A stretch of DNA of 64,000 bases from Terriglobia bacterium. GTDB taxonomy: Bacteria > Acidobacteriota > Terriglobia > 20CM-2-55-15. The stretch is from the NCBI GenBank assembly GCA_965262425.1, contig OZ253536.1, positions 4,688,115-4,752,114 of the forward strand. Reading direction: 5' to 3'. This document shows positions 3,328 to 58,218 of the stretch, piece after piece. Below the pieces are notes generated by a model, which worked only from the letters and a program-made list of their open reading frames with translations, was not told where the DNA came from and made no database searches. Each line of letters begins with the position of its first letter. Positions within the stretch are counted from its first letter, which is position 1. The translations under genes were made by a program, and so were the position numbers.

Positions 3328-3409
3328 ACCGCGAAGGCACGAAGGACGCGAAGCTCGGGATTTCTTCATGCAGAAGTCCAAACCTTCGTTTGCTTCGTGC
3401 CTTCGCGGT
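3328..3409. repeat. Palindromic extragenic element, family CGAAGGCACGAAG (copy 1)
   Basis: accgcgaaggcacgaaggacgcgaag ... cttcgtttgcttcgtgccttcgcggt forms a long imperfect hairpin. It sits between the convergent brx-like and actD genes. The same arm core is found at 35392-35487 and 58105-58191. Confidence 0.6.
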
Positions 3410-3444
3410 GAATTCGAGTCTGTGGGTTCAGGTGAAGTCCGGCG

Positions 3445-15343: not shown

Positions 15344-15478
15344 GACGCAGAGACGCAGAGACGCAGAGGGTACATTTGTTTAAGAAAGCCGTGTGTACTT
15401 CCCGCTGGAACTGAGCGCGAACGGTGTAGCGGATAGAGAAATGAAATATCAACTCTGCGTCTTTGCGTCTCTGCGTCG
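15344..15478. repeat. Palindromic extragenic element, family GACGCAGAG (copy 2). It has 3 GACGCAGAG units, an 83-nt spacer, then 3 CTGCGTC units.
   Basis: gacgcagagacgcagagacgcagag ... ctctgcgtctttgcgtctctgcgtcga. The 3' arm is identical to the copy at 343-367. Confidence 0.6.
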
Positions 15479-15509
15479 ATAATCCGTATCAATCTGGCAG
15501 AATATCAGG

Positions 15510-20895: not shown

Positions 20896-21200
20896 GTGTT
20901 GTCTTATACAGTCACCCAGCGGCGCGAAGAACTCAGCATCCGAATGGCCCTGGGTGCCTCCCCGGGATCGGTGCGCTGGTTCGTTGTAGGTAGCGGAATG
21001 CGGCTTGTCGTGCTTGGTGTGTTCGCCGGCGCAGTGGGAGCCTACTTGTCGTCACGTTTCTTATCGTCGGTGGTTTACGGCGTGGGTGTCACGGACGTCG
21101 CGACCTACGCCGGCGTCGCAGCATTGGTCGGCGGTGTTGCTCTGGTGTCCTGTGCTCTGCCGGCAGCATCTCGGATGGACCCTCTCGCCGGCCTGCGAAG
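20896..21200 (+). pseudogene. C-terminal fragment (about 100 aa, last TM helices) of an FtsX/ADOP-type permease. It has no N-terminal part, and its frame runs into the MITE.
   Basis: LSYTVTQRREELSIRMALGAS...CALPAASRMDPLAGLRR matches the conserved FtsX C-terminus (...QRTREIGIRMALGA...PARRAARVDP..). The upstream 280 bp is non-coding. The ORF continues to 21552 only by reading through repeat copy A. Confidence 0.6.
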
Positions 21201-21202
21201 GA

Positions 21203-21368
21203 CTAGGAGCCTGCGCGGCAGAAGGGATCGTAGCGAGAAAGTGGAGAATCGAGGTCAGATTTTCTCGATTTTGAGGCGAATAGTGGTTCTATTCAACGAA
21301 AAATCGGGGGAATATGACCGATTACACCGCTTTCGCAGTAGATCTCTTCTGCCGCGCAGGCTCCTAGG
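21203..21368 (+). mobile_element. MITE-like repeat family 1, copy A. About 166 bp with a perfect 22-bp TIR CTAGGAGCCTGCGCGGCAGAAG and a possible GAAGGA target-site duplication.
   Basis: Near-identical copies occur at 31470-31632, 33434-33598 and, inverted, at 50203-50368. The flanks read gaagga|CTAGGAGCC...GGCTCCTAG|gaagga. Confidence 0.7.
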
Positions 21369-21409: not shown

Positions 21410-22303
21410 TTACATCAGTTCCGCAACAAATTTCTGTGTCACCTCGGGATCTAGCTGGACCGATTGGTAGGCCAGGGGACCTTCAGCGGCCAGTACCGGT
21501 TCGGCCTGATCGAGCGAAGGAAGATCCGTCCGTTGGAAAAACTTCCCGATGAATATCTCGTCGCCCCAGATCAACGCTCGTCGCATCGCTTCGTGCCAGT
21601 CGGATGGATCGTAGCTTTCTTCGTCTTCGAGCTTCTTCACGCGCTCTCGGAACCATGGAAAGGTGTTGTCGTGGTTGTAGGTGACGCAGGGGCTGAAAAT
21701 GTCGATAAACGAAAATCCCTTATGCGCAAATGCCTGTTTGATCAGGTCGACCAGGTGTTTTGGCGCCCCACTGAACCCGCGGGCGACAAAAGTCGCTCCC
21801 GCAGCCAACGCCAGTGACATCGGGTTGAGGGGTTCCTCAATGTTGCCGAACGGCATGCTCTTGGTCTTCATGCCGATGCGGCTGGTGGGCGATGTCTGGC
21901 CCGTGGTGAGTCCGTATATCTGGTTGTCCATGACCAGGTAGACGAGGTCCACGTTCCGGCGCATCGTGTGAATGAAGTGGTTCCCACCGATCCCAAACCC
22001 GTCTCCGTCTCCACCGGTGACCACCACGTTCAAGTCGTGATTCGCCATCTTCACTCCCGTGGCGACAGCCAGCGCCCGCCCGTGCAGTGTATGCATGCCG
22101 TAGGTTTCGACATAGCCGGGCAAGTTGGAAGAGCAGCCGATTCCGCTCACCGTGACCACGTTGTGCGGTTGGATCTGGAGTTCGACAAGTGCTTTTTGAA
22201 TGGAAGACAGGACTCCAAAGTCACCGCAGCCCGCACACCAATCTGGATCGACCGGCCCCTTGAAATCCTTGATCTTCAGCTCCGGTTCTATTGTGGTCGT
22301 CAC
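21410..22303 (-). CDS. korB: 2-oxoacid:ferredoxin oxidoreductase beta subunit (TPP-binding; KorB/PorB-like)
   Basis: GDGDGFGIGGNHF TPP motif and CAGCGDFG. GTG start at 22303 lies 4 nt after a GGAGGA SD, which directly follows the korA stop. The ORF-track start at 22474 is an extension. Confidence 0.8.
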   Translation of the reverse strand: MTTTIEPELKIKDFKGPVDPDWCAGCGDFGVLSSIQKALVELQIQPHNVVTVSGIGCSSNLPGYVETYGMHTLHGRALAVATGVKMANHDLNVVVTGGDGDGFGIGGNHFIHTMRRNVDLVYLVMDNQIYGLTTGQTSPTSRIGMKTKSMPFGNIEEPLNPMSLALAAGATFVARGFSGAPKHLVDLIKQAFAHKGFSFIDIFSPCVTYNHDNTFPWFRERVKKLEDEESYDPSDWHEAMRRALIWGDEIFIGKFFQRTDLPSLDQAEPVLAAEGPLAYQSVQLDPEVTQKFVAELM

Positions 22304-27355: not shown

Positions 27356-28429
27356 CTAGGAGCCTGCGGCGGGCTGGGGGAGGGTTGTGGGTGGTTGGAC
27401 CTGCCAGCCTTCTCCGTCGAGGGCTTTCATGAACTCGACCAGGTCCGCTTTTTCCTGATCGGTCAGCCGCAGGGGCTTGATTTCCTGGTCCAGAGTTGGA
27501 TTTTCGAAGCCGCCCTCATCGTAGAAATCGACGACTTCCTCCAGAGTCCAGAATCGCCCGTCGTGCATATACGGCCTCGTGTACAGGATGTCGCGCAGGG
27601 TCGGGGTTTTGAAACGCCCGCGATCTTCCTCGTTCTGGGTCACGACGTATCGGCCCGCGTCCGGATTCTCCTCATCCATACCGACGCCGAGGTTGTGGTA
27701 TTGGTTGTCGGTGAGATTGAATCCCGCATGGCAGGCGGTGCAGTTGGACTTCTCCCGATCCTCGAACAGCGTCCAGCCACGCTGTGCCGACTCCGACAGA
27801 GCGTTCTGGTCGCCCGACATGAAACGATCCCACGCGGAGTTGCCGGATATGATCGTTCGCTCGAACGCCGCGATCGCGCGCCCGACGTTATCGATCGTGA
27901 TGTCGGGCGATCCGAAAATAGCCTCGAACTGTGCTTGGTAACCCGGTATGCCGTTCAACGTCGCTACGGCCCCACGGTGTGTGTTAGCCATCTCGATAGG
28001 ATTGGCGATGGGGCCGACGGCCTGTTCTTCCAGGTCCTTCGCCCGGCCATCCCAGAATACGCCAAGCTGGGCGTAGGCCAGGTTGATTACCGTTGGGGCA
28101 CTGCGACCACCTTCCTGCCCGGCGACACCCATGCTGACCGGCCGACCGTCCGTGAAACCGAGTACCGGATTATGACAAGTCGCGCAGCTCACCGTTCCGT
28201 CCGACGAGAGCCTGGGATCGAAGAATAATTGCTTGCCCAGTTCGACCTTAGCCGCCGTCATCGGGTTGTTTTCCGGGATCGGTGGAGCGGCACCGATTCC
28301 CAGCGGAAGGTCTATTTCCATGGGATCGTGCGCCCCGGGAGGGAACACGAAGGCCTGATCCGTTGTTTGTGGTTGGCAGGCCGTCACCAGTAATCCGGCC
28401 AGGATGATCACCTTGAAAGTCTTCGACAC
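27356..28429 (-). CDS. Di-heme cytochrome c peroxidase (CCP/MauG family) lipoprotein
   Basis: Two CxxCH motifs (CATCH, CTACH) and CCP-family motifs (FFDPRLS, FKTPTLRD). GTG start at 28429 with an AAGGAGG SD. Lipobox LLVTAC. It ends 22 nt upstream of the copA start. Confidence 0.85.
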   Translation of the reverse strand: MSKTFKVIILAGLLVTACQPQTTDQAFVFPPGAHDPMEIDLPLGIGAAPPIPENNPMTAAKVELGKQLFFDPRLSSDGTVSCATCHNPVLGFTDGRPVSMGVAGQEGGRSAPTVINLAYAQLGVFWDGRAKDLEEQAVGPIANPIEMANTHRGAVATLNGIPGYQAQFEAIFGSPDITIDNVGRAIAAFERTIISGNSAWDRFMSGDQNALSESAQRGWTLFEDREKSNCTACHAGFNLTDNQYHNLGVGMDEENPDAGRYVVTQNEEDRGRFKTPTLRDILYTRPYMHDGRFWTLEEVVDFYDEGGFENPTLDQEIKPLRLTDQEKADLVEFMKALDGEGWQVQPPTTLPQPAAGS

Positions 28430-28531
28430 AATAGCCTCCTTATAAAAAGGTATCAACTTCGTCTCCAGATTGATCTGAAGTGTATCGATACCCATCAGCG
28501 CCTGGCCTTATCCAACAATTCTACTGAACGT

Positions 28532-31469: not shown

Positions 31470-31632
31470 CTAGGAGCCTGCGCGGCAGAAGGGATCGTAG
31501 CGAGAAAGTGGAGAATCGAGGCCAGATTTTCTCGTTTTGAGGCGAATAGTGGTTCTATTCAACGAAAAATCGGGGAAATATGGACCGATTATACCGCTTT
31601 CGCAGTAGATCTCTTCTGCCGCGCAGGCTCCT
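31470..31632 (+). mobile_element. MITE-like repeat family 1, copy B
   Basis: Same TIR and internal sequence as copy A, with a few substitutions. It lies upstream of the gamma-CA-like gene and downstream of acnA. Confidence 0.7.
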
Positions 31633-31668
31633 CGTTTCCCGTCGTCAAACCGGGATCTCCGGAGGCTC

Positions 31669-32190
31669 ATGCTTCACGAATACAAGGGCGTGCGGCCGAC
31701 ACTGGGTGAGGGTGTCTTTGTCGCGCCAGGCGCTCACGTGATTGGCGACGTAGAGATTGGCGACCACTCCAGTATCTGGTTCAACACCGTGGTTCGCGGC
31801 GACGTCGACTACATTCGAATCGGACATCGGACGAACATACAGGATGGTTCGATTTGTCACGGCATGTTGGATGAATGCCCCGTGATCCTGGGTGACTTTG
31901 TGACCGTCGGTCACGGTGCCATCCTGCACGGTTGCACTGTGGAATCCCACTGCTTGATCGGAATGGGCGCGACGATCATGAACAATGTGCGTGTCGGAGC
32001 GGGATCGATCGTCGCTGCGCGGGCGCTGTTGACGGAAAACACCGAGATCCCGCCCAGGAGCCTGGTTTAGGGAGCTCCCGGTAGAGTGAAGAGGGCGTTG
32101 ACGGAAGAAGAAATCGCCGGCATCGACGAATATGCCTGGCGGTATTGCCGGTACAAGGACGCGTACCTGGCCGGTCCTGATAAGCGATGA
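31669..32190 (+). CDS. Gamma-class carbonic anhydrase family protein (PaaY/YrdA-like hexapeptide-repeat protein) interrupted by one in-frame TAG at 32068-32070
   Basis: Left-handed beta-helix hexapeptide repeats up to ...IPPRSLV*. The same frame continues as GAPGRVKRALTEEEIAGIDEYAWRY..., matching the conserved family C-terminus. It ends with a TGA overlapping the hisS ATG as ATGA. Confidence 0.7.
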
Positions 32191-33437
32191 TCAAATTGGT
32201 TCGTGGTACCTACGACATCCTCCCGCCCGACATCCATATCTGGCACGCCATCGAGGCGGAAATGAGGGCTGTGTTCGAATCGTACTCGTTTAACGAGATC
32301 CGTACCCCAATCTTCGAGTCGACCGAACTGTTCGTCCGGGGAGTCGGGGAAGAAACCGATATCGTTTCGAAAGAGATGTACACGTTCAAGGACAAGGACG
32401 AGAAGACCTCTTTGACTCTCAGGCCCGAGGGAACAGCGCCAGTTGTCCGCTCCTACATTGAACACCATCTTTCTGATGAATCCAGGATGATCAAGCTCTA
32501 CTACATCGGTGCGATGTTCCGTCGGGAACGACCCCAGAGGGGCCGTTTCCGGCAGTTTTATCAGGCCGGAGTGGAGGTTCTTTCTCCCAACGACAACCCC
32601 GCCATCGAGGCGGAGGTTGTCGAAATGCTCATGCTGCTGTTCGAGCGGCTGGAAGTTTCGTCGCTGGACCTGGCTGTGAATTCGATCGGGTGCCGGGAAT
32701 GTCGGCCCTCATACATCGAGAAGCTGCGGAGCGAAATCCGCGGGCGCCGTGAAGGTTTGTGTGAGGACTGTCGCAACCGGGGTGAGAAGAATCCACTGCG
32801 TGTCTTCGACTGCAAAGTGAAATCCTGCCAGGCGCTGATAGGGGAGCTGCCGACGATTACCGACAACCTCTGTCAGGAGTGCAGGGAGCACTTCTCCGGA
32901 TTTCGCGCGTACCTGGATGAAAGAGAGATCCCGTACCGGGTGGAGCCCCGGCTCGTCCGAGGCCTGGACTATTACATGCGAACGACGTTCGAGATACTTT
33001 CTTCCAGCCTGGGGGCTCAGGACACTCTGGTGGGAGGCGGCCGCTACGATGGCCTCAGCGAAGACCTGGGCGGTCCCCCGACTAACGGGTTTGGTTTCGC
33101 GATGGGGCTTGAGCGGTTGATCCTGTCGATTCCGGAGCCCGAAAAGCTGGCGCCGGGACCCGGCCCGGCCTATTTCCTGGCGACAATGGGCGAGGACGCA
33201 TTCCGGTACGCCACGCTTCTGGCACGCAAATTGCGAAAGGCAGGCTGTTCGGTCTATCTGGATTTCGCCGGGCGCAGCCTCAAGAGCCAGATGAGATTGG
33301 CAGGGAAGCTCGGTGCAGCTCAAGTTGTCATGATAGGTGAAAACGAGATCAAGTCCGGGACCCTCATCGTTCGGGACATGAACACCCGGGAGCAAAGGGA
33401 GTTGAGCGAGTCTGAACTGATGGAGACGGGCTGCTAG
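32187..33437 (+). CDS. hisS: Histidine--tRNA ligase
   Basis: 416 aa with class II aaRS motifs and an HisRS-specific N-terminus MIKLVRGTYDILP. Confidence 0.9.
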   Translation: MIKLVRGTYDILPPDIHIWHAIEAEMRAVFESYSFNEIRTPIFESTELFVRGVGEETDIVSKEMYTFKDKDEKTSLTLRPEGTAPVVRSYIEHHLSDESRMIKLYYIGAMFRRERPQRGRFRQFYQAGVEVLSPNDNPAIEAEVVEMLMLLFERLEVSSLDLAVNSIGCRECRPSYIEKLRSEIRGRREGLCEDCRNRGEKNPLRVFDCKVKSCQALIGELPTITDNLCQECREHFSGFRAYLDEREIPYRVEPRLVRGLDYYMRTTFEILSSSLGAQDTLVGGGRYDGLSEDLGGPPTNGFGFAMGLERLILSIPEPEKLAPGPGPAYFLATMGEDAFRYATLLARKLRKAGCSVYLDFAGRSLKSQMRLAGKLGAAQVVMIGENEIKSGTLIVRDMNTREQRELSESELMETGC

Positions 33438-33598
33438 GAGTCTGCGCGGGAGAAGGGATCGTGGCGAGAAAGTGGAGAATCGAGGCCAGATTTTCTCGAT
33501 TTTGAGGCGAATAGTGGTTCTATTCAACGAAAAATCGGGGAAACATGGACCGATTATGCCGCTTTCGCAGTAGATTCCTTCTGCCGCGCAGGCTCCTA
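33434..33598 (+). mobile_element. MITE-like repeat family 1, copy C (the TIR begins inside the hisS stop codon)
   Basis: ctaggagtctgcgcgggagaag...cttctgccgcgcaggctcct. The TAG of hisS is the CTAG of the TIR. Confidence 0.7.
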
Positions 33599-33612
33599 CG
33601 GAAGTACTGGAA

Positions 33613-35367
33613 ATGAAGAGAACCCATAGTTGTGGAGAGTTGACCGCGGCCGATGCGGGAAAAGAAGTTGTGCTCATGGGGTGGGTGAACCGGCGGCGGG
33701 ACCACGGCCAGCTTGTTTTCATAGATCTGCGTGACAGAGAGGGCATTACCCAGGTCGTCCTGCACCCGGAACGCGACGCCGACGCCCACGGGCAGGCCAA
33801 GCGATTGCGTTCCGAGTTCGTGATCGCCGTGCGGGGAAAGGTTTCCCTGAGGGATGGGGAACTGGCCAACCCCAGCTTGAAGACCGGTGAGATCGAAGTG
33901 GACGTCGAGCGGGTCGATGTTTTCAGTGAGGCCCGGACCACGCCCTTTCCGATCGAGGACGACATTTCAACCTCCGAAGATCTGCGACTGAAATACCGTT
34001 ACCTCGATCTGCGCCGCCCGCAGATGCAGGCCAATTTCCATCTTCGGCATCAGGTCATGATGGCGATTCGCGCCTATATGGATCGGGAGGGATTCTGGGA
34101 GGTCGAGACCCCCTTCCTGACGAAGTCGACTCCGGAGGGTGCGAGAGACTATCTGGTTCCCAGCCGGCTCTCCCACGGTAACTTCTATGCCTTGCCGCAA
34201 TCGCCACAGATCTTTAAGCAGATCCTGATGGTTTCCGGCTTTGAAAAGTATTTCCAGATCGTCCGATGCTTTCGCGACGAAGACCTCCGTGCCGACAGAC
34301 AGCCCGAGTTTACTCAAATCGACGTCGAGATTTCCTTTCCGGACGTGGATGATTTCTTTGCTGTGATGGAAGGCTTGATGGTCGAAGTGTTCAAAGTGAA
34401 AGGCCTCGAGATCGAGTGTCCATTTCCCCGAATGAGCTATGACGACGCGATGGACCGTTACGGCTCAGACAAACCCGACACCCGTTTCGGAGTCGAGTTG
34501 CAGGACTTTACCGAAGTATTTCGCGAAGCGGAACCGTCCTTGTTCCGGGATATCGTTGAGGGGGGCGGTACCGTTCGGGGTCTGCTAGCGCCGGTGTCCT
34601 ACTCTCGCCGGATACTGGATGAAATCGACACTTTCGTAAAGCACCTGGGCGGTGCGGGCGTGGCGTGGTTGAAAGTGACCGATGAGGGGACCAGTGCGGT
34701 TCCACCAATCAAAAAAGCGGGTGCCGCGGCCATCGAGGCCCTCTTGACCAAGGCTCGGGCGCGTCCTGGAGAGACGGTTTTCATGGTTGCGGGGAACCGG
34801 GGCGATGTCCTTCCCACGATGGGCGCACTGAGGTTGGAACTGGCCCGCCGCGAGGGCTGGATTCCTTCGGGCAAATGGAATTTTTTGTGGGTGGTAGACT
34901 TTCCGCTCTTCGAATTCGATTCCACCGAGAATCGCTGGGCGTCCACGCACCATCCATTCACTTCCCCGGTCGCCGAAGATCTTTCCATCCTGGAGAGTGA
35001 CACCGGCAAAGTCCGCGCTCAGGCTTACGACATGGTTCTCAACGGGGTGGAATGTGGCGGCGGTTCGATCAGGATTCACCAGAGTGAAGTTCAGGCGCAA
35101 ATCTTCAAGCTGCTGGGGCTTGACGAAGAGGAGGCGGCCGAGAAATTTGGTTTCTTTCTCGAGGCTCTGGAATACGGAACCCCGCCCCACGGCGGGATCG
35201 CGCTCGGCCTCGATCGAATCATCATGCTGCTGGCCGGAGGCCAATCGCTCCGCGACGTGATTGCCTTCCCCAAGACGGCCCGGGCGGTCGATCTGATGAG
35301 TGGCTCGCCGTCGAGGGTAGGCGACCAGCAACTCAAGGAACTGGGAATACGAACCCGGAAGAGTTGA
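33613..35367 (+). CDS. aspS: Aspartate--tRNA ligase
   Basis: 584 aa with an OB-fold N-terminus, class II motifs, and a GGGSIRIH / LGLDR C-terminal region typical of bacterial AspRS. Confidence 0.95.
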
Positions 35368-35391: not shown

Positions 35392-35487
35392 TCTTTTCAA
35401 CACGAAGACACGAAGTCACAAACGAAAGTTGAATTTCATTAAGCCTGATTCCTTCTTCGTGCCCTTCGTGCCTTCGTGTTGAAAAGA
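35392..35487. repeat. Palindromic extragenic element, family CGAAGGCACGAAG (copy 2)
   Basis: tcttttcaacacgaagacacgaag ... cttcttcgtgcccttcgtgccttcgtgttgaaaaga. It lies immediately 3' of aspS. Confidence 0.6.
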
Positions 35488-35533
35488 ATGTTCCGGTGTG
35501 AGGAGCCTTTCGGTAAACGAACGGACGTGGCTT

Positions 35534-38742: not shown

Positions 38743-38993
38743 AATGACCGTCTCCTGACCTGCATTCAGAGCACATCGCTTGCCATGGTGTGCGTCGGGG
38801 TTTTTCGTTCTCTTCGGAAGAACGCCTGACCCATCGCCGCCCCTGCCAGTACGTGTTTGGGCCGTTCAGGACGGGGCGTTTCGGCCGCCGCGTTGTGGAT
38901 GCCGACCGCATTGCCTGTGTTGGCGGAGACGCCGTTCGTCATTGTTTTGACGATCGAGACCCATCGGATGTCAGAAGGATGACGGAACGCTAA

Positions 38994-39204
38994 GGGCCCG
39001 CTCAAGAATAACGTCACATTTTGGCATCCCACCGTCGCGCCATCTTCGCGGACCGTCGCGCCATCTTCGCGGGACCGTCGCGCCATCTTCGGCCGCTCCT
39101 CAATCGCAGATGTCGGGCTATTTCTCCGGTCTGCTCAATCGGTCGCGACCGAATCTGACCGAAATCTGGGCGCCAATTCTGTGAAGTTGTTCTTGAGCGG
39201 ACCC
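38994..39204. mobile_element. MITE-like repeat family 2, copy 1. About 211 bp with an imperfect TIR GGGCCCGCTCAAGAATAACGTCACATTTTGGC / GCCAATTCTGTGAAGTTGTTCTTGAGCGGACCC, and it contains a 3x tandem 21-nt repeat.
   Basis: A second copy is at 57465-57633, with identical internal blocks (caatcgcagatg.cgggctatt.ctccggtctgctcaatcggtcgc.accgaatctgaccgaaatctgggcgccaattctgtgaagtt). Its gtcgcgccatcttcgcgg(g)acc unit is repeated 3x. Copy 2 carries only one related, degenerate unit, cccatcttcacgccaccttcggccgctcc. Confidence 0.65.
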
Positions 39205-39283
39205 TGGATGGAGCGGAAATGGCGTGCCTCGAGACTCCGGGCCCCGATTTGACACTGCCGACCCGTGGTCCTACCCTTGAACG

Positions 39284-50202: not shown

Positions 50203-50368
50203 CTAGGAGCCTGCGCGGCAGAAGAGATCTACTGCGAAAGCGGTATAATCGGTCCAGATTTCCCCGATTTTTCGTTAAATAGAACCACTATTCGCCTCAA
50301 AATCGAGAAAATCTGTCCTCGATTCTCCACTTTCTCGCTACGATCCCTTCTGCCGCGCAGGCTCCTAG
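50203..50368 (-). mobile_element. MITE-like repeat family 1, copy D (inverted relative to copies A-C)
   Basis: Both termini are the perfect TIR (ctaggagcctgcgcggcagaag ... cttctgccgcgcaggctcctag). Its internal sequence is the reverse complement of copies A-C. Confidence 0.7.
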
Positions 50369-50455: not shown

Positions 50456-50537
50456 TGCGAAAGGAGGGACTCGAACCCTCATGGGTTGCCCCACTGGATC
50501 CTAAGTCCAGCGCGTCTGCCAATTCCGCCACTTTCGC
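50456..50537 (-). tRNA. tRNA-Leu (anticodon UAG), type II with a long variable arm, no encoded CCA
   Basis: Minus-strand read GCGAAAGTGGCGGAATTGGCAGACGCG CTGGA-CTTAGGA-TCCAG TGGGGCAACCCATGA GGGTTCGAGTCCC...CTTTCGCA. The acceptor stem is 7 bp, the anticodon loop is C-U-UAG-G-A, and it has the T-loop GTTCGAGTC. Confidence 0.8.
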
Positions 50538-57409: not shown

Positions 57410-57464
57410 GAGCCGCCTATTATTGCACAGCCTCCCAGGCGTTGCCGCCAGGGTTTCCGGGTAA

Positions 57465-57633
57465 GGGCCCACTCAAGAATAACTTCACATTTTGGCATCC
57501 CATCTTCACGCCACCTTCGGCCGCTCCTCAATCGCAGATGCCGGGCTATTCCTCCGGTCTGCTCAATCGGTCGCAACCGAATCTGACCGAAATCTGGGCG
57601 CCAATTCTGTGAAGTTATTCTTGAGTGGACCCT
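57465..57633. mobile_element. MITE-like repeat family 2, copy 2 (about 169 bp)
   Basis: gggcccactcaagaataacttcacattttggc ... gccaattctgtgaagttattcttgagtggaccc. Its internal block is shared with the copy at 38994-39204. Confidence 0.65.
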
Positions 57634-58104: not shown

Positions 58105-58191
58105 TCTTCAACACGAAGACACGAAGAACACGAAGAAGCAAAAAATAGAAACTTCGCGTGTTTTCGTGACCTTCGTGCCTTCGTGTTGAAA
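58105..58191. repeat. Palindromic extragenic element, family CGAAGGCACGAAG (copy 3)
   Basis: tcttcaacacgaagacacgaagaacacgaagaag ... cttcgcgtgttttcgtgaccttcgtgccttcgtgttgaaa. Confidence 0.6.
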
Positions 58192-58218
58192 TTTCGGCTG
58201 TTGGGTCCGCTACGGCTG

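What the first reader, a model, noticed from the sequence alone, without database searches (positions are those of the whole stretch)
21203..21368. Family-1 MITE-like element: about 165 bp, perfect 22-bp TIR, four copies in 64 kb, one beginning inside a stop codon
Copies at 21203-21368, 31470-31632, 33434-33598 and (inverted) 50203-50368 share the perfect terminal inverted repeat CTAGGAGCCTGCGCGGCAGAAG. They also share a highly structured interior. It contains nested hairpins such as GAATAGtggttCTATTC and TCGAGgccagattttCTCGA, and sub-terminal inverted blocks gatcgtagcgagaaag / ctttcgcagtagatc.

All copies are intergenic and sit at gene 3' ends, after korB/FtsX-fragment, acnA, hisS and tig. 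Copy A is flanked by a GAAGGA direct repeat. Copy C starts within the hisS stop codon. Copy A supplies the reading-through tail of a truncated FtsX fragment. Copy A also lies between korB and a strong minus-strand terminator, so it is probably transcribed in the korAB 3' UTR.

Four copies in 64 kb implies hundreds per genome. The element may double as a structured RNA or terminator module.
Basis: seen in the sequence. Interest (0 to 1): 0.7.

Follow-up and report, generated by a model that had tools for sequence, protein, structure and literature searches.

The report
Small transposon riding on ISKpn6-type transposase
The four repeats are real copies of a roughly 160-base non-coding mobile element (a MITE) whose ends exactly match the left end of ISKpn6, the insertion sequence next to the KPC carbapenemase gene; it inserts at the four bases CTAG, often at a gene's TAG stop codon, so it is an ordinary kind of element with some interesting details.

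Summary
Four copies, 93-97% alike, sit at 21203-21367, 31470-31634, 33434-33599 and 50203-50368 (the last inverted).

They are MITEs of the IS1182 family, ISKpn6 clade:
- The 19-nt terminal repeat GGAGCCTGCGCGGCAGAAG is identical to the left end of ISKpn6.
- The same repeat bounds full-length 1.54-1.57 kb IS copies that encode IS1182-family transposases in Proteobacteria and Acidobacteriota.

The outer CTAG is the duplicated target, not part of the repeat. A close relative has one CTAG and no element at site A. Relatives also lack copies B, C and D. The GAAGGA "direct repeat" already exists in the empty target.

In 64 copies from other genomes, 24 have a neighbouring gene whose TAG stop lies in the flanking CTAG.

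- B lies in a divergent promoter region.
- D lies 15 nt upstream of the tig start codon.
- C lies 13 nt upstream of aspS.
- No terminator or promoter motif was found, and Rfam gave no match.

Still unexplained: the family keeps a conserved about 160-nt hairpin through compensatory changes, has conserved unpaired motifs, and folds consistently better on one strand. Its orientation relative to host genes is nevertheless random.

Verdict: a new member of a known kind, of moderate interest.

The parts
21203..21367 (+). MITE copy A. The flanking CTAG copies are at 21203-21206 and 21364-21367; the core GGAGCC...GGCTCC runs 21206-21364. Arm a (TAGCGAGAAA) is on the left.
   Evidence: The empty site in relatives L233-L236 has a single CTAG. 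Copy A lies between an FtsX-like fragment ORF (+) and the korB stop at 21410 (-).
31470..31634 (+). MITE copy B. The flanks read CTAG on the left and CTCG on the right. It sits in the loop of a 9-bp hairpin, GGTTTGACG...CGTCAAACC.
   Evidence: Absent in relatives L103-L105, where the hairpin is intact. It lies between the divergent genes acnA (-) and the hexapeptide transferase (+, start 31669).
33434..33599 (+). MITE copy C. The flanks read CTAG on the left and CTAC on the right. The left CTAG holds the hisS stop codon TAG (33435-33437). The aspS ATG at 33613 is 13 nt beyond the right end.
   Evidence: Absent in relatives L103-L105, where hisS and aspS overlap by 4 nt (ATGA).
50203..50368 (-). 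MITE copy D, inverted. It lies between tRNA-Leu (50456-50537, -) and the tig ATG (50187, -), 15 nt upstream of the tig start codon.
   Evidence: Absent from the tRNA-Leu-tig spacer of relatives L229 and L232.
27356..27368 (+). Exact 13-nt match to the element's end, CTAGGAGCCTGCG, with no partner end. It overlaps the stop codon of the minus-strand gene 27356-28495. It may be the remnant of a lost copy.
   Evidence: By my own arithmetic, not a tool result, an exact 13-mer is expected about 0.002 times in 128 kb of sequence.

Best explanation
The repeat is a non-autonomous DNA transposon (a MITE) of the IS1182 family, ISKpn6 clade.

Anatomy. The element is about 158-160 bp long and has no coding capacity. 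It is bounded by 18-19-bp terminal inverted repeats, GGAGCCTGCGCGGCAGAAG. These are the binding and cleavage sites of an ISKpn6-like DDE transposase encoded elsewhere.

Mechanism. The transposase moves the element in trans and integrates it at the tetranucleotide CTAG. That target is duplicated on both sides, as 4 bp or as its central TA.

Where copies end up. CTAG contains the amber stop codon TAG, and the duplication restores whatever was there. Insertions exactly at a gene's C-TAG stop, in hairpin loops and in short spacers are therefore tolerated and accumulate. This explains a copy 'starting inside a stop codon' and the excess of copies next to gene 3' ends.

Shown here:
- Identity of the ends with autonomous IS copies.
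- The CTAG duplication.
- Presence/absence polymorphism at all four window sites.
- Absence of an ORF.
- Multi-copy, multi-genome distribution.

Inferred:
- That an ISKpn6-like transposase is present in this genome and mobilises the element.
- That host effects are incidental.
For: (1) Ends shared with autonomous IS copies.
- The 19-mer GGAGCCTGCGCGGCAGAAG bounds a 1,575-bp element in L063, CTAG to CTAG. Its 449-aa ORF scores 390.6 bits against NCBIfam NF033551 'IS1182 family transposase' (cut-off 270) and matches Pfam DUF772, DDE_Tnp_1_6 and DDE_Tnp_1.
- Related transposases next to the same end occur in L067, L019, L023, L035, L064, L021, L066 and L095.
- L035 and L064 come from a Terriglobia MAG. 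In L035 the IS core is 1,539 bp and has CTAG on both sides.

(2) Link to ISKpn6.
- The L063 transposase is 72.6% identical to ISKpn6.
- ISKpn6 on plasmid pBIC-1a, next to blaKPC-2, has a left end of exactly GGAGCCTGCGCGGCAGAAG and a right end of GGAGTCTGCGCGGCAGAGC. CTAG lies on both sides, and it measures 1,540 bp between the ends.

(3) Target duplication.
- Relatives with 98%-identical KorB have ...gaatgga-CTAG-gaaggac... and no element. The window has ...gaagga-CTAG[element]CTAG-gaaggac....
- A nested copy in L034 interrupts the apex TGTAG-CTAG-GCTACA of an identical copy and is flanked by two CTAGs.
- In L167 a MITE and an IS1182-like IS abut and share one CTAG.
- 54 of 65 left flanks and 54 of 65 right flanks read CTAG.

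(4) Insertion polymorphism.
- Copies B and C are absent from relatives at about 94% nucleotide identity.
- Copy D is absent from relatives with 87-88% identical Tig.
- Strains at 99.6-99.8% nucleotide identity carry B and C.

(5) Family behaviour already in the literature.
- IS1182-derived MITEs of 160 bp with 26-bp IRs and 4-bp DRs are reported in Methanosarcina acetivorans (PMC3852290).
- ISPsy36 (IS1182 family) targets the 4-bp palindrome GGCC (PMC8027508).
- Members of the family target palindromes and stem-loops (PMC5678879).
- In line with that last point, 7 of 63 reconstructed empty sites here have a perfect stem of at least 6 bp around the CTAG. Controls give 1.2%, and 0 of 1000 controls reach the observed value. 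Sites A and B of the window are among the seven.

(6) Stop-codon and 3'-end association, from gene calls by my own codon-usage gene finder.
- 24 of 64 elements have a flanking gene whose TAG stop is in the CTAG.
- 74 gene 3' ends face an element against 46 5' ends (p = 0.013).
- Median distance is 22.5 nt to 3' ends and 112 nt to 5' ends.
Against: - No IS1182 transposase lies in the 64-kb window. The rest of this genome could not be searched, so a resident cognate transposase is inferred only.
- At sites B, C and D the nearest available relatives do not have a CTAG at the orthologous position. B has ATTGT in the hairpin loop. C has an overlapping ATGA junction. D has a different small hairpin. 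Either those spacers diverged, or some insertions rearrange the target, as reported for IS1272.
- Apart from the terminal repeat, the MITE interior shows no BLAST-level similarity to the ends of the full-length IS copies. It is therefore not a simple internal-deletion derivative of the IS copies found here.
- Simple selfish-element logic does not predict the conserved core motifs, the covariation or the strand-biased wobble pairs.
Confidence: 0.9

Rival explanations
1. The element's main role is that of a structured RNA module. Read as part of neighbouring transcripts, its long hairpin would act as a terminator, a 3'-end stabiliser or a processing site.
For: - The fold is very stable: z = -14.2 and -11.7.
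- In a 54-sequence alignment of nine or ten sub-families, 93.2% of cells are paired. There are 350 double-change cells against 112 in shuffles. The covariation score is 0.458, against 0.07-0.11 for slid controls.
- Once oriented by two conserved, non-identical sub-terminal motifs, the same strand folds better in 9 of 9 clearly oriented sub-family consensuses, by about 5-22 kcal/mol. That strand carries 39 G.U pairs against 18 on the other.
- G.U cells outnumber A.C cells by about 143 to 34 in the consensus pairs. This is my hand tally of the pair types listed.
- Many copies sit directly after stop codons, so they are probably transcribed.
Against: - Rfam gave no match at gathering score or at E<=10.
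- No hairpin-plus-U-tract terminator or sigma-70-like promoter lies in or beside any window copy.
- Orientation relative to flanking transcription is random: 14 sense against 12 antisense. Arms facing 5' ends number 6 against 3, and arms facing 3' ends 20 against 20.
- Copies C and D lie 13-15 nt upstream of aspS and tig. In relatives hisS and aspS overlap, so transcription must pass through the element.
- The sequences share ancestry, so the strand bias and covariation counts are not independent events.
- DNA-level constraints, such as cruciform or hairpin recognition by the transposase, would also preserve pairing.
Confidence: 0.1
2. The element is a host-maintained repeat of the REP/BIME kind, spread by a RAYT (Y1) transposase, or another non-transposon palindromic repeat.
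For: It is palindromic, mostly intergenic and multi-copy. The apex carries a conserved (A/G)TAG...CTA(T/C) hairpin that recalls the GTAG of REPs.
Against: - It is about 160 bp long, whereas REPs are 20-40 bp (my own knowledge of REP elements).
- It has long terminal inverted repeats identical to those of DDE-type IS elements.
- It makes a clean target duplication.
- Copies are present or absent between close relatives.
- No RAYT gene was seen next to any copy, but none was searched for.
Confidence: 0.02
3. The CTAG is part of the element's terminal repeat, as the reader's 22-bp TIR implies. Insertion would then replace target bases, in the way of the 'stem-loop replacing' transposition described for IS1272, rather than duplicate a CTAG target.
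For: - Empty sites B, C and D in relatives have no CTAG.
- At B the flanks are almost identical, yet the 5 nt at the insertion point differ completely.
- IS1272 (IS1182 family) replaces target stem-loops without making a TSD (PMC5678879).
- No element was seen with the same non-CTAG variant on both sides.
Against: - Site A is a clean one-CTAG to two-CTAG case in a very close relative.
- The nested (L034) and abutting (L136, L167) copies share CTAGs exactly as duplication predicts.
- ISPsy36, of the same family, uses a 4-bp palindromic target.
Confidence: 0.12

Closest known systems
ISKpn6 (IS1182 family), the insertion sequence beside blaKPC in Tn4401
   Same: - Its left terminal repeat is identical over 19 nt, GGAGCCTGCGCGGCAGAAG.
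- CTAG lies on both sides.
- Full-length relatives with the same ends (L063, L067, L035, L064) encode transposases 53-75% identical to that of L063, which is itself 72.6% identical to ISKpn6.
   Different: - The window element is 160 bp, not 1,540 bp, and has no transposase gene.
- Inside the terminal repeat its sequence is unrelated to the ISKpn6 ends.
- It sits in an acidobacterial chromosome, not on an enterobacterial plasmid.
IS1182-family MITEs of Methanosarcina acetivorans (ISMac2-related; PMC3852290)
   Same: They are about 160-169 bp long, have 25-26-bp inverted repeats and a 4-bp direct repeat in one set, and belong to the same IS family.
   Different: They are archaeal and have a different partner IS. 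I did not compare the sequences.
ISPsy36 and IS1272 (IS1182 family)
   Same: - ISPsy36 uses a 4-bp palindromic target, GGCC.
- IS1272 prefers palindromes and stem-loops as targets.
- Here the target is CTAG, and 11% of insertions lie in hairpin loops against 1.2% expected.
   Different: - Both are autonomous elements.
- IS1272 is reported to replace the target stem-loop without a duplication, whereas site A here shows a clean duplication.
Correia (NEMIS), ERIC and other whole-length-hairpin bacterial MITEs
   Same: They are 100-170 bp long, fold as one long hairpin, are often co-transcribed with neighbouring genes, and sit close to gene ends. This comparison rests on my own knowledge, not on a test made here.
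   Different: - Their terminal repeats differ, and their target duplication is TA.
- Their partners are different or unknown.
- Documented RNA-level effects, such as RNase III cleavage, promoters and orientation-dependent mRNA stability, have no counterpart shown here. Orientation here is random.

Membership tests
Bacterial MITE (non-autonomous derivative or parasite of a DDE insertion sequence) | Short (under about 300 bp) with no transposase ORF | tested here: met
   The cores are 159-160 bp. The element is too short to encode a transposase, and no IS1182 transposase is present in the window.
Bacterial MITE (non-autonomous derivative or parasite of a DDE insertion sequence) | Terminal inverted repeats shared with an autonomous IS | tested here: met
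   The 19-nt repeat is identical to the ends of L063, L035 and L064 and to the ISKpn6 left end.
Bacterial MITE (non-autonomous derivative or parasite of a DDE insertion sequence) | Target-site duplication shown by comparing a filled site with an empty one | tested here: met
   At site A the empty site has one CTAG and the filled site has two. The nested copy in L034 shows the same. Sites B, C and D are empty in relatives but have no CTAG there.
Bacterial MITE (non-autonomous derivative or parasite of a DDE insertion sequence) | Multiple dispersed copies and presence/absence polymorphism | tested here: met
   - 4 copies lie in the window.
- All four window sites are empty in relatives.
IS1182 family, ISKpn6 clade (as the mobilising partner) | The partner element encodes an IS1182-type DDE transposase | tested here: met
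   NCBIfam NF033551 scores 390.6 bits against a cut-off of 270. Pfam DUF772, DDE_Tnp_1_6 and DDE_Tnp_1 also match. The transposase is 72.6% identical to ISKpn6.
IS1182 family, ISKpn6 clade (as the mobilising partner) | A cognate transposase is present in the same genome as the MITE copies | not testable with these tools
   Only 64 kb of this genome is available, and it holds no transposase of this kind. A different Terriglobia MAG carries two full copies, L035 and L064.
IS1182 family, ISKpn6 clade (as the mobilising partner) | The transposase binds these ends and mobilises the element | not testable with these tools
   This needs an experiment.
Intrinsic terminator or known structured RNA family | A GC-rich stem followed by a U-tract, or a match to an Rfam model | tested here: not met
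   No terminator-like site lies in or beside any copy. Rfam gave no match at gathering score or at E<=10.
REP/BIME repeats | A 20-40-bp unit, an associated RAYT gene, and no terminal inverted repeats or target duplication | tested here: not met
   The unit is 160 bp, has 19-bp terminal repeats and makes a CTAG duplication. RAYT genes were not searched for.

The most novel reading that the evidence does not exclude
The element may be more than a passive MITE. Across sub-families with different terminal repeats, which match different IS1182-type transposases, it keeps four things:
- The same length of about 160 nt.
- The same conserved unpaired motifs: AGCGA(A/G)AA on one arm, TT(T/C)GCAG on the other, and an apex (A/G)TAG-N5-CTA(T/C). 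One apex version, TGAGGCGAATAGTGGTTCTATTTAACGA, is identical in elements whose arms and inner repeats differ.
- Stems that change only by compensatory substitutions.
- An excess of G.U pairs on one strand.

This is the pattern of a molecule that works as a single strand. That could be a transposition intermediate recognised as a hairpin or cruciform, or an RNA with its own function. On this reading the terminal repeats are swapped to exploit whichever IS1182 transposase is at hand.
Probability: 0.15. Interest if true: 0.7.

Novelty: new member of a known kind. Interest (0 to 1): 0.4.

Why it matters
- Annotation. The result explains a high-copy repeat in an acidobacterial genome and warns annotators about several things: copies overlap TAG stop codons, extend spurious ORFs such as the FtsX fragment, split operons such as hisS-aspS, and break metagenome assemblies.
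- Link to a clinical element. The element connects an abundant environmental MITE family, found in Acidobacteriota and in Beta- and Gammaproteobacteria, to the ISKpn6 lineage known from Tn4401/blaKPC plasmids. The terminal repeat is identical over 19 nt. ISKpn6-type transposases therefore have a large natural pool of substrates and a strict CTAG target.
- IS1182 mechanism. If the conserved hairpin core proves to be functional, it would bear on how IS1182-family elements recognise DNA. That mechanism is still poorly understood: Wan et al. 2017 (PMC5678879) could only propose a model for IS1272 and noted that earlier work gave no detailed data.

Tried and rejected
- Symmetric palindromy of the flanks right next to CTAG: no excess, 3.29 of 12 complementary positions against 3.28 in controls. 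Allowing offsets gave only a modest MFE signal, -15.7 against -14.6 +/- 0.36 kcal/mol. Only the test for a perfect stem of at least 6 bp was clearly positive.
- G.U strand bias within single copies: 6 against 2 in the window family, not significant alone.
- Orientation relative to host transcription, and which arm faces a gene start: no bias. I therefore dropped the idea that the better-folding strand is selected in host mRNAs.
- Outward promoter in the b arm (TTGCAG as a -35): I saw no usable -10 by eye, and the scan tool found nothing in any of the three regions scanned.
- Derivation of the MITE arms from the sub-terminal parts of the full-length IS copies: BLAST found no similarity beyond the terminal repeat, nor did inspection by eye.
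- Phage carriage: 0 matches to the terminal repeat in viral contigs.
- Literature: no paper contains the terminal-repeat sequence. Searches for ISKpn6 with MITE, and for CTAG with MITE, returned nothing specific. The original ISKpn6/Tn4401 paper is not held.
- Small-peptide idea: a 17-codon ATG ORF ends at the right CTAG in copy A, but the other window copies have an extra base just after that ATG (ATGG against ATG-), so the frame is not kept. I dropped it on inspection only.
- Whole-genome copy count: not possible.

Full report

Yes. The four stretches read as described.
- The 22-mer CTAGGAGCCTGCGCGGCAGAAG is found 8 times in the window at up to 3 mismatches. The hits form four facing pairs, against 0.00 expected in shuffles.
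- Copies B, C and D are 96.9%, 93.3% and 96.4% identical to copy A over their whole length (alignment).
- Each copy is an imperfect palindrome from end to end. About 61 of some 80 positions are Watson-Crick paired.
- Copy A folds at -104.3 kcal/mol (z = -14.2) on the + strand and -85.7 kcal/mol (z = -11.7) on the - strand.

**2. What is it?**

- The hits include Betaproteobacteria (Hydrogenophaga, Polaromonas, Massilia, Variovorax).
- They include Gammaproteobacteria (Dokdonella, Lysobacterales, Wenzhouxiangella).
- They include Acidobacteriota (Terriglobia, Holophagales).
- They include a few Actinomycetota MAGs.

Most hits are facing pairs 159-164 bp apart, that is, the same kind of small element.

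*Full-length partners.* Some hits are full-length insertion sequences.
- In L063 the two ends are 1.57 kb apart and enclose a 449-aa ORF. It scores 390.6 bits against NCBIfam 'IS1182 family transposase' (cut-off 270) and has the Pfam DUF772 and DDE domains.
- tblastn finds relatives of this transposase next to the same end in L067, L019, L023, L035, L064, L021, L066 and L095.
- L035 and L064 are from a Terriglobia MAG. Their cores are 1,539 bp, and L035, the one whose ends I read, has CTAG on both sides.

*Link to ISKpn6.* The L063 protein is 72.6% identical to the ISKpn6 transposase. The copy of ISKpn6 next to blaKPC-2 on plasmid pBIC-1a has exactly this 19-mer as its left end. Its right end is a 3-mismatch version, and CTAG lies outside both ends.

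*The window.* It contains no such transposase. Its repeat is therefore a MITE of the ISKpn6 clade of the IS1182 family.

*Host organism.* The window's organism appears to be an acidobacterium.
- Its MITE sub-family is shared at 94-98% identity with Terriglobia MAG OZ252023.1.
- The named homologues of its HisS, Tig and KorB are from Acidobacteria or Terriglobia MAGs.

**3. Target and duplication**

In 65 copies the three bases outside the core are CTA on the left (60, 54 and 60 of 65) and TAG on the right (61, 54 and 59 of 65). The ends therefore read CTAG|GAGCC...GGCTC|CTAG.

Three independent lines show that CTAG is a duplicated target and not part of the element:
- Site A. Relatives with 98%-identical KorB (L233-L236) have korB and the FtsX-like fragment gene 41 nt apart. 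There the sequence is ...ctgcgaatgga-CTAG-gaaggacttcgcgg... The window has ...ctgcgaagga-CTAG[element]CTAG-gaaggacttcgcgg....
- Nested copy. In L034 one copy sits inside another. The intact copy has the apex TGTAG-CTAG-GCTACA. The interrupted copy has a CTAG on each side of the insert.
- Abutting elements. They share a single CTAG (L167, L136).

Whether 4 bp or only the central TA is duplicated cannot be told, because the target always reads CTAG.

The remaining three window sites are also empty in relatives:
- B and C are absent from L103-L105, which are about 94% identical at the nucleotide level.
- D is absent from L229 and L232.
- Strains 99.6-99.8% identical to the window carry B and C.

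One loose end remains. Those three empty sites do not show a CTAG.
- B: the loop of the hairpin GGTTTGACG...CGTCAAACC reads ATTGTTTTCC.
- C: hisS and aspS overlap as ATGA.
- D: a different small hairpin occupies the site.

Either these spacers diverged, or some insertions rearrange the target. The latter has been reported for IS1272, another IS1182-family element, which replaces target stem-loops (PMC5678879).

**4. Where copies land**

I wrote a codon-usage gene finder that reproduces the window's known genes. With its calls:
- 24 of 64 elements have a neighbouring gene whose TAG stop codon is the TAG of the flanking CTAG.
- Gene 3' ends face elements more often than 5' ends do, 74 against 46 (p = 0.013).
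- 3' ends are also much closer, with a median of 22.5 nt against 112 nt.

Inserting at C-TAG restores the stop codon and leaves the protein unchanged.

A minority of insertions lie in hairpin loops. 7 of 63 sites have a perfect stem of at least 6 bp around the CTAG, against 1.2% in controls, with 0 of 1000 controls as high. Window sites A and B are two of the seven. This agrees with the statement that some IS1182 members target palindromes (PMC5678879).

**5. Gene context in the window, corrected**

- Copy A lies between the convergent FtsX-like fragment ORF and korB (stop at 21410). In relatives the 101-aa fragment ORF stops at the target TAG. In the window a 1-nt difference upstream shifts the frame, so the ORF runs into the element.
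- Copy B lies between the divergent acnA and hexapeptide-transferase genes, not after acnA. The probable acnA start is 31303, giving 923 aa as called in relatives. The hexapeptide-transferase gene starts at 31669.
- Copy C lies after the hisS stop and 13 nt before the aspS ATG.
- Copy D lies downstream of tRNA-Leu and 15 nt upstream of the tig ATG, not after tig.

No sigma-70-like promoter or hairpin-plus-U-tract terminator is found in or next to any copy. That includes the 'strong terminator' said to lie beside copy A. In relatives hisS and aspS overlap, and tig follows its tRNA closely. Transcription must therefore read through copies C and D. This argues against a terminator role.

**6. Structure and what remains unexplained**

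*Sub-families and motifs.*
- The copies retrieved by the terminal repeat fall into about ten sub-families. Their interiors are only 50-60% alike, yet their length stays at 159-164 nt.
- Nearly all of the 54 copies carry two different conserved sub-terminal motifs, one per arm, and an apex hairpin (A/G)TAG-N5-CTA(T/C). Arm a reads TCGAGGCGAAA and arm b CCGGCTGCAAA. L069 and a few others were ambiguous. These motifs give the element an intrinsic orientation.

*Covariation.* On the oriented 54-sequence alignment, RNAalifold predicts 38 consensus pairs, 23 of them with compensatory double changes. The pair counts are as follows:

| Measure | Observed | Control |
|---|---|---|
| Cells paired | 93.2% | 35-49% (slid) |
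| Double-change cells | 350 | 112 +/- 9 (shuffles) |
| Covariation score | 0.458 | 0.07-0.11 (slid) |

*Strand bias.*
- The a-to-b strand folds better than its complement in 9 of 9 clearly oriented sub-family consensuses.
- That strand has 39 G.U pairs against 18 (single copies).

*Different ends, same apex.* A metagenome scan with the window's apex 21-mer returned at least 120 loci.
- Most of them carry the same apex and the same architecture but different inner terminal repeats. Examples are CTAGGAGYCTGTCGGACTTAGG and CTAGGAGCCTGTCCGAGAATAG.
- One such copy abuts an IS1182-like IS with the matching type of end.

*Reading.* Conserved unpaired motifs together with covarying stems look like a functional single-stranded fold. 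Against an RNA role in host transcripts:
- Orientation is random: 14 sense against 12 antisense. Arms facing gene 5' ends number 6 against 3, and arms facing 3' ends 20 against 20.
- Rfam has no match, even at E<=10.

The sequences also share ancestry, so the counts overstate the number of independent events. I leave this as an open observation. The most economical reading is a constraint imposed by the transposition machinery.

**7. Comparison with what is known, and verdict**

MITEs derived from or mobilised by IS1182-family elements are already described. An example is the 160-bp, 26-bp-IR, 4-bp-DR elements of Methanosarcina acetivorans (PMC3852290). Four-base palindromic targets (ISPsy36, GGCC; PMC8027508) and palindrome targeting are also known for the family.

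No paper in the library contains this terminal repeat, and none describes an ISKpn6-type MITE.

The finding is therefore a new member of a known kind. It is real, well characterised and moderately interesting. The interest lies in its exact match to the left end of ISKpn6, its distribution across phyla, its strict CTAG and stop-codon targeting, and its unexplained conserved hairpin core.

Noticed in passing
window 38991-39205 and 57462-57633: A second, unrelated MITE-like repeat. Its terminal inverted repeats of about 26 nt read AGGGCCCGCTCAAGAATAAC(G/T)TCACA ... TGTGAAGTT(G/A)TTCTTGAG(C/T)GGACCCT. The two copies are about 90-95% alike. The first copy carries extra tandem units of roughly 22 nt (CCGTCGCGCCATCTTCGCGG...) that the second lacks.
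   Followed up: partly
window 27356-27368: An exact 13-nt match to the element's end (CTAGGAGCCTGCG) with no partner end. It encodes the last codons and the TAG stop of the minus-strand gene 27356-28495. It may be the remnant of a lost copy.
   Followed up: partly
window 31669-32070, compared with L101 and L103-L105: In the window and in L100 the hexapeptide-transferase gene upstream of hisS is called at 133 aa and ends 117 nt before hisS. In the other strains and relatives it is 173 aa and overlaps the hisS start. A premature stop or a frameshift in the window strain would explain this.
   Followed up: no
window 20896-21201, compared with L233 2436-2741: The FtsX-like C-terminal fragment is also a free-standing 101-aa ORF in relatives, where it ends at the CTAG. 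It is therefore an old gene remnant or small gene, not something created by the element. In the window a 1-nt difference (gaatgga against gaagga) lets the ORF run on into copy A.
   Followed up: partly
window 3385-3429, 35456-35500, 58163-58207; also 334-371 and 15445-15482: Short repeated motifs, TTCGTG(N3)CTTCGTGCCTTCG(C/T)G and CTGCGTCTTTGCGTCTCTGCGTCGA, recur in the window. Their meaning is unknown.
   Followed up: no
flanks of copies in many loci (e.g. L004, L036, L055, L065, L097, L122, L159, L176): When a flanking CTAG is altered, it is most often to CCAG on the left or CTGG on the right. These are the same T-to-C change read inward from either end, and it turns CTAGG into CCAGG. The two ends never carry the same variant as a direct repeat.
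   Followed up: no
L143 and L175 (metagenome loci); L113 and L217: Some copies of the same apex family carry extra DNA just after the apex. In L143 and L175 it is a segment of about 70 nt that contains GGAGCCTGCGACGAG. In L113 and L217 it is a small extra hairpin, CCCGAAAAC...TTTCGGG. These look like secondary insertions or variants.
   Followed up: no
L237 2531-3643: In a relative with 86%-identical KorB, the position downstream of korB is occupied by an ISL3-family transposase gene instead of the FtsX fragment. The korB 3' flank therefore seems to be a recurrent landing site for mobile elements.
   Followed up: no
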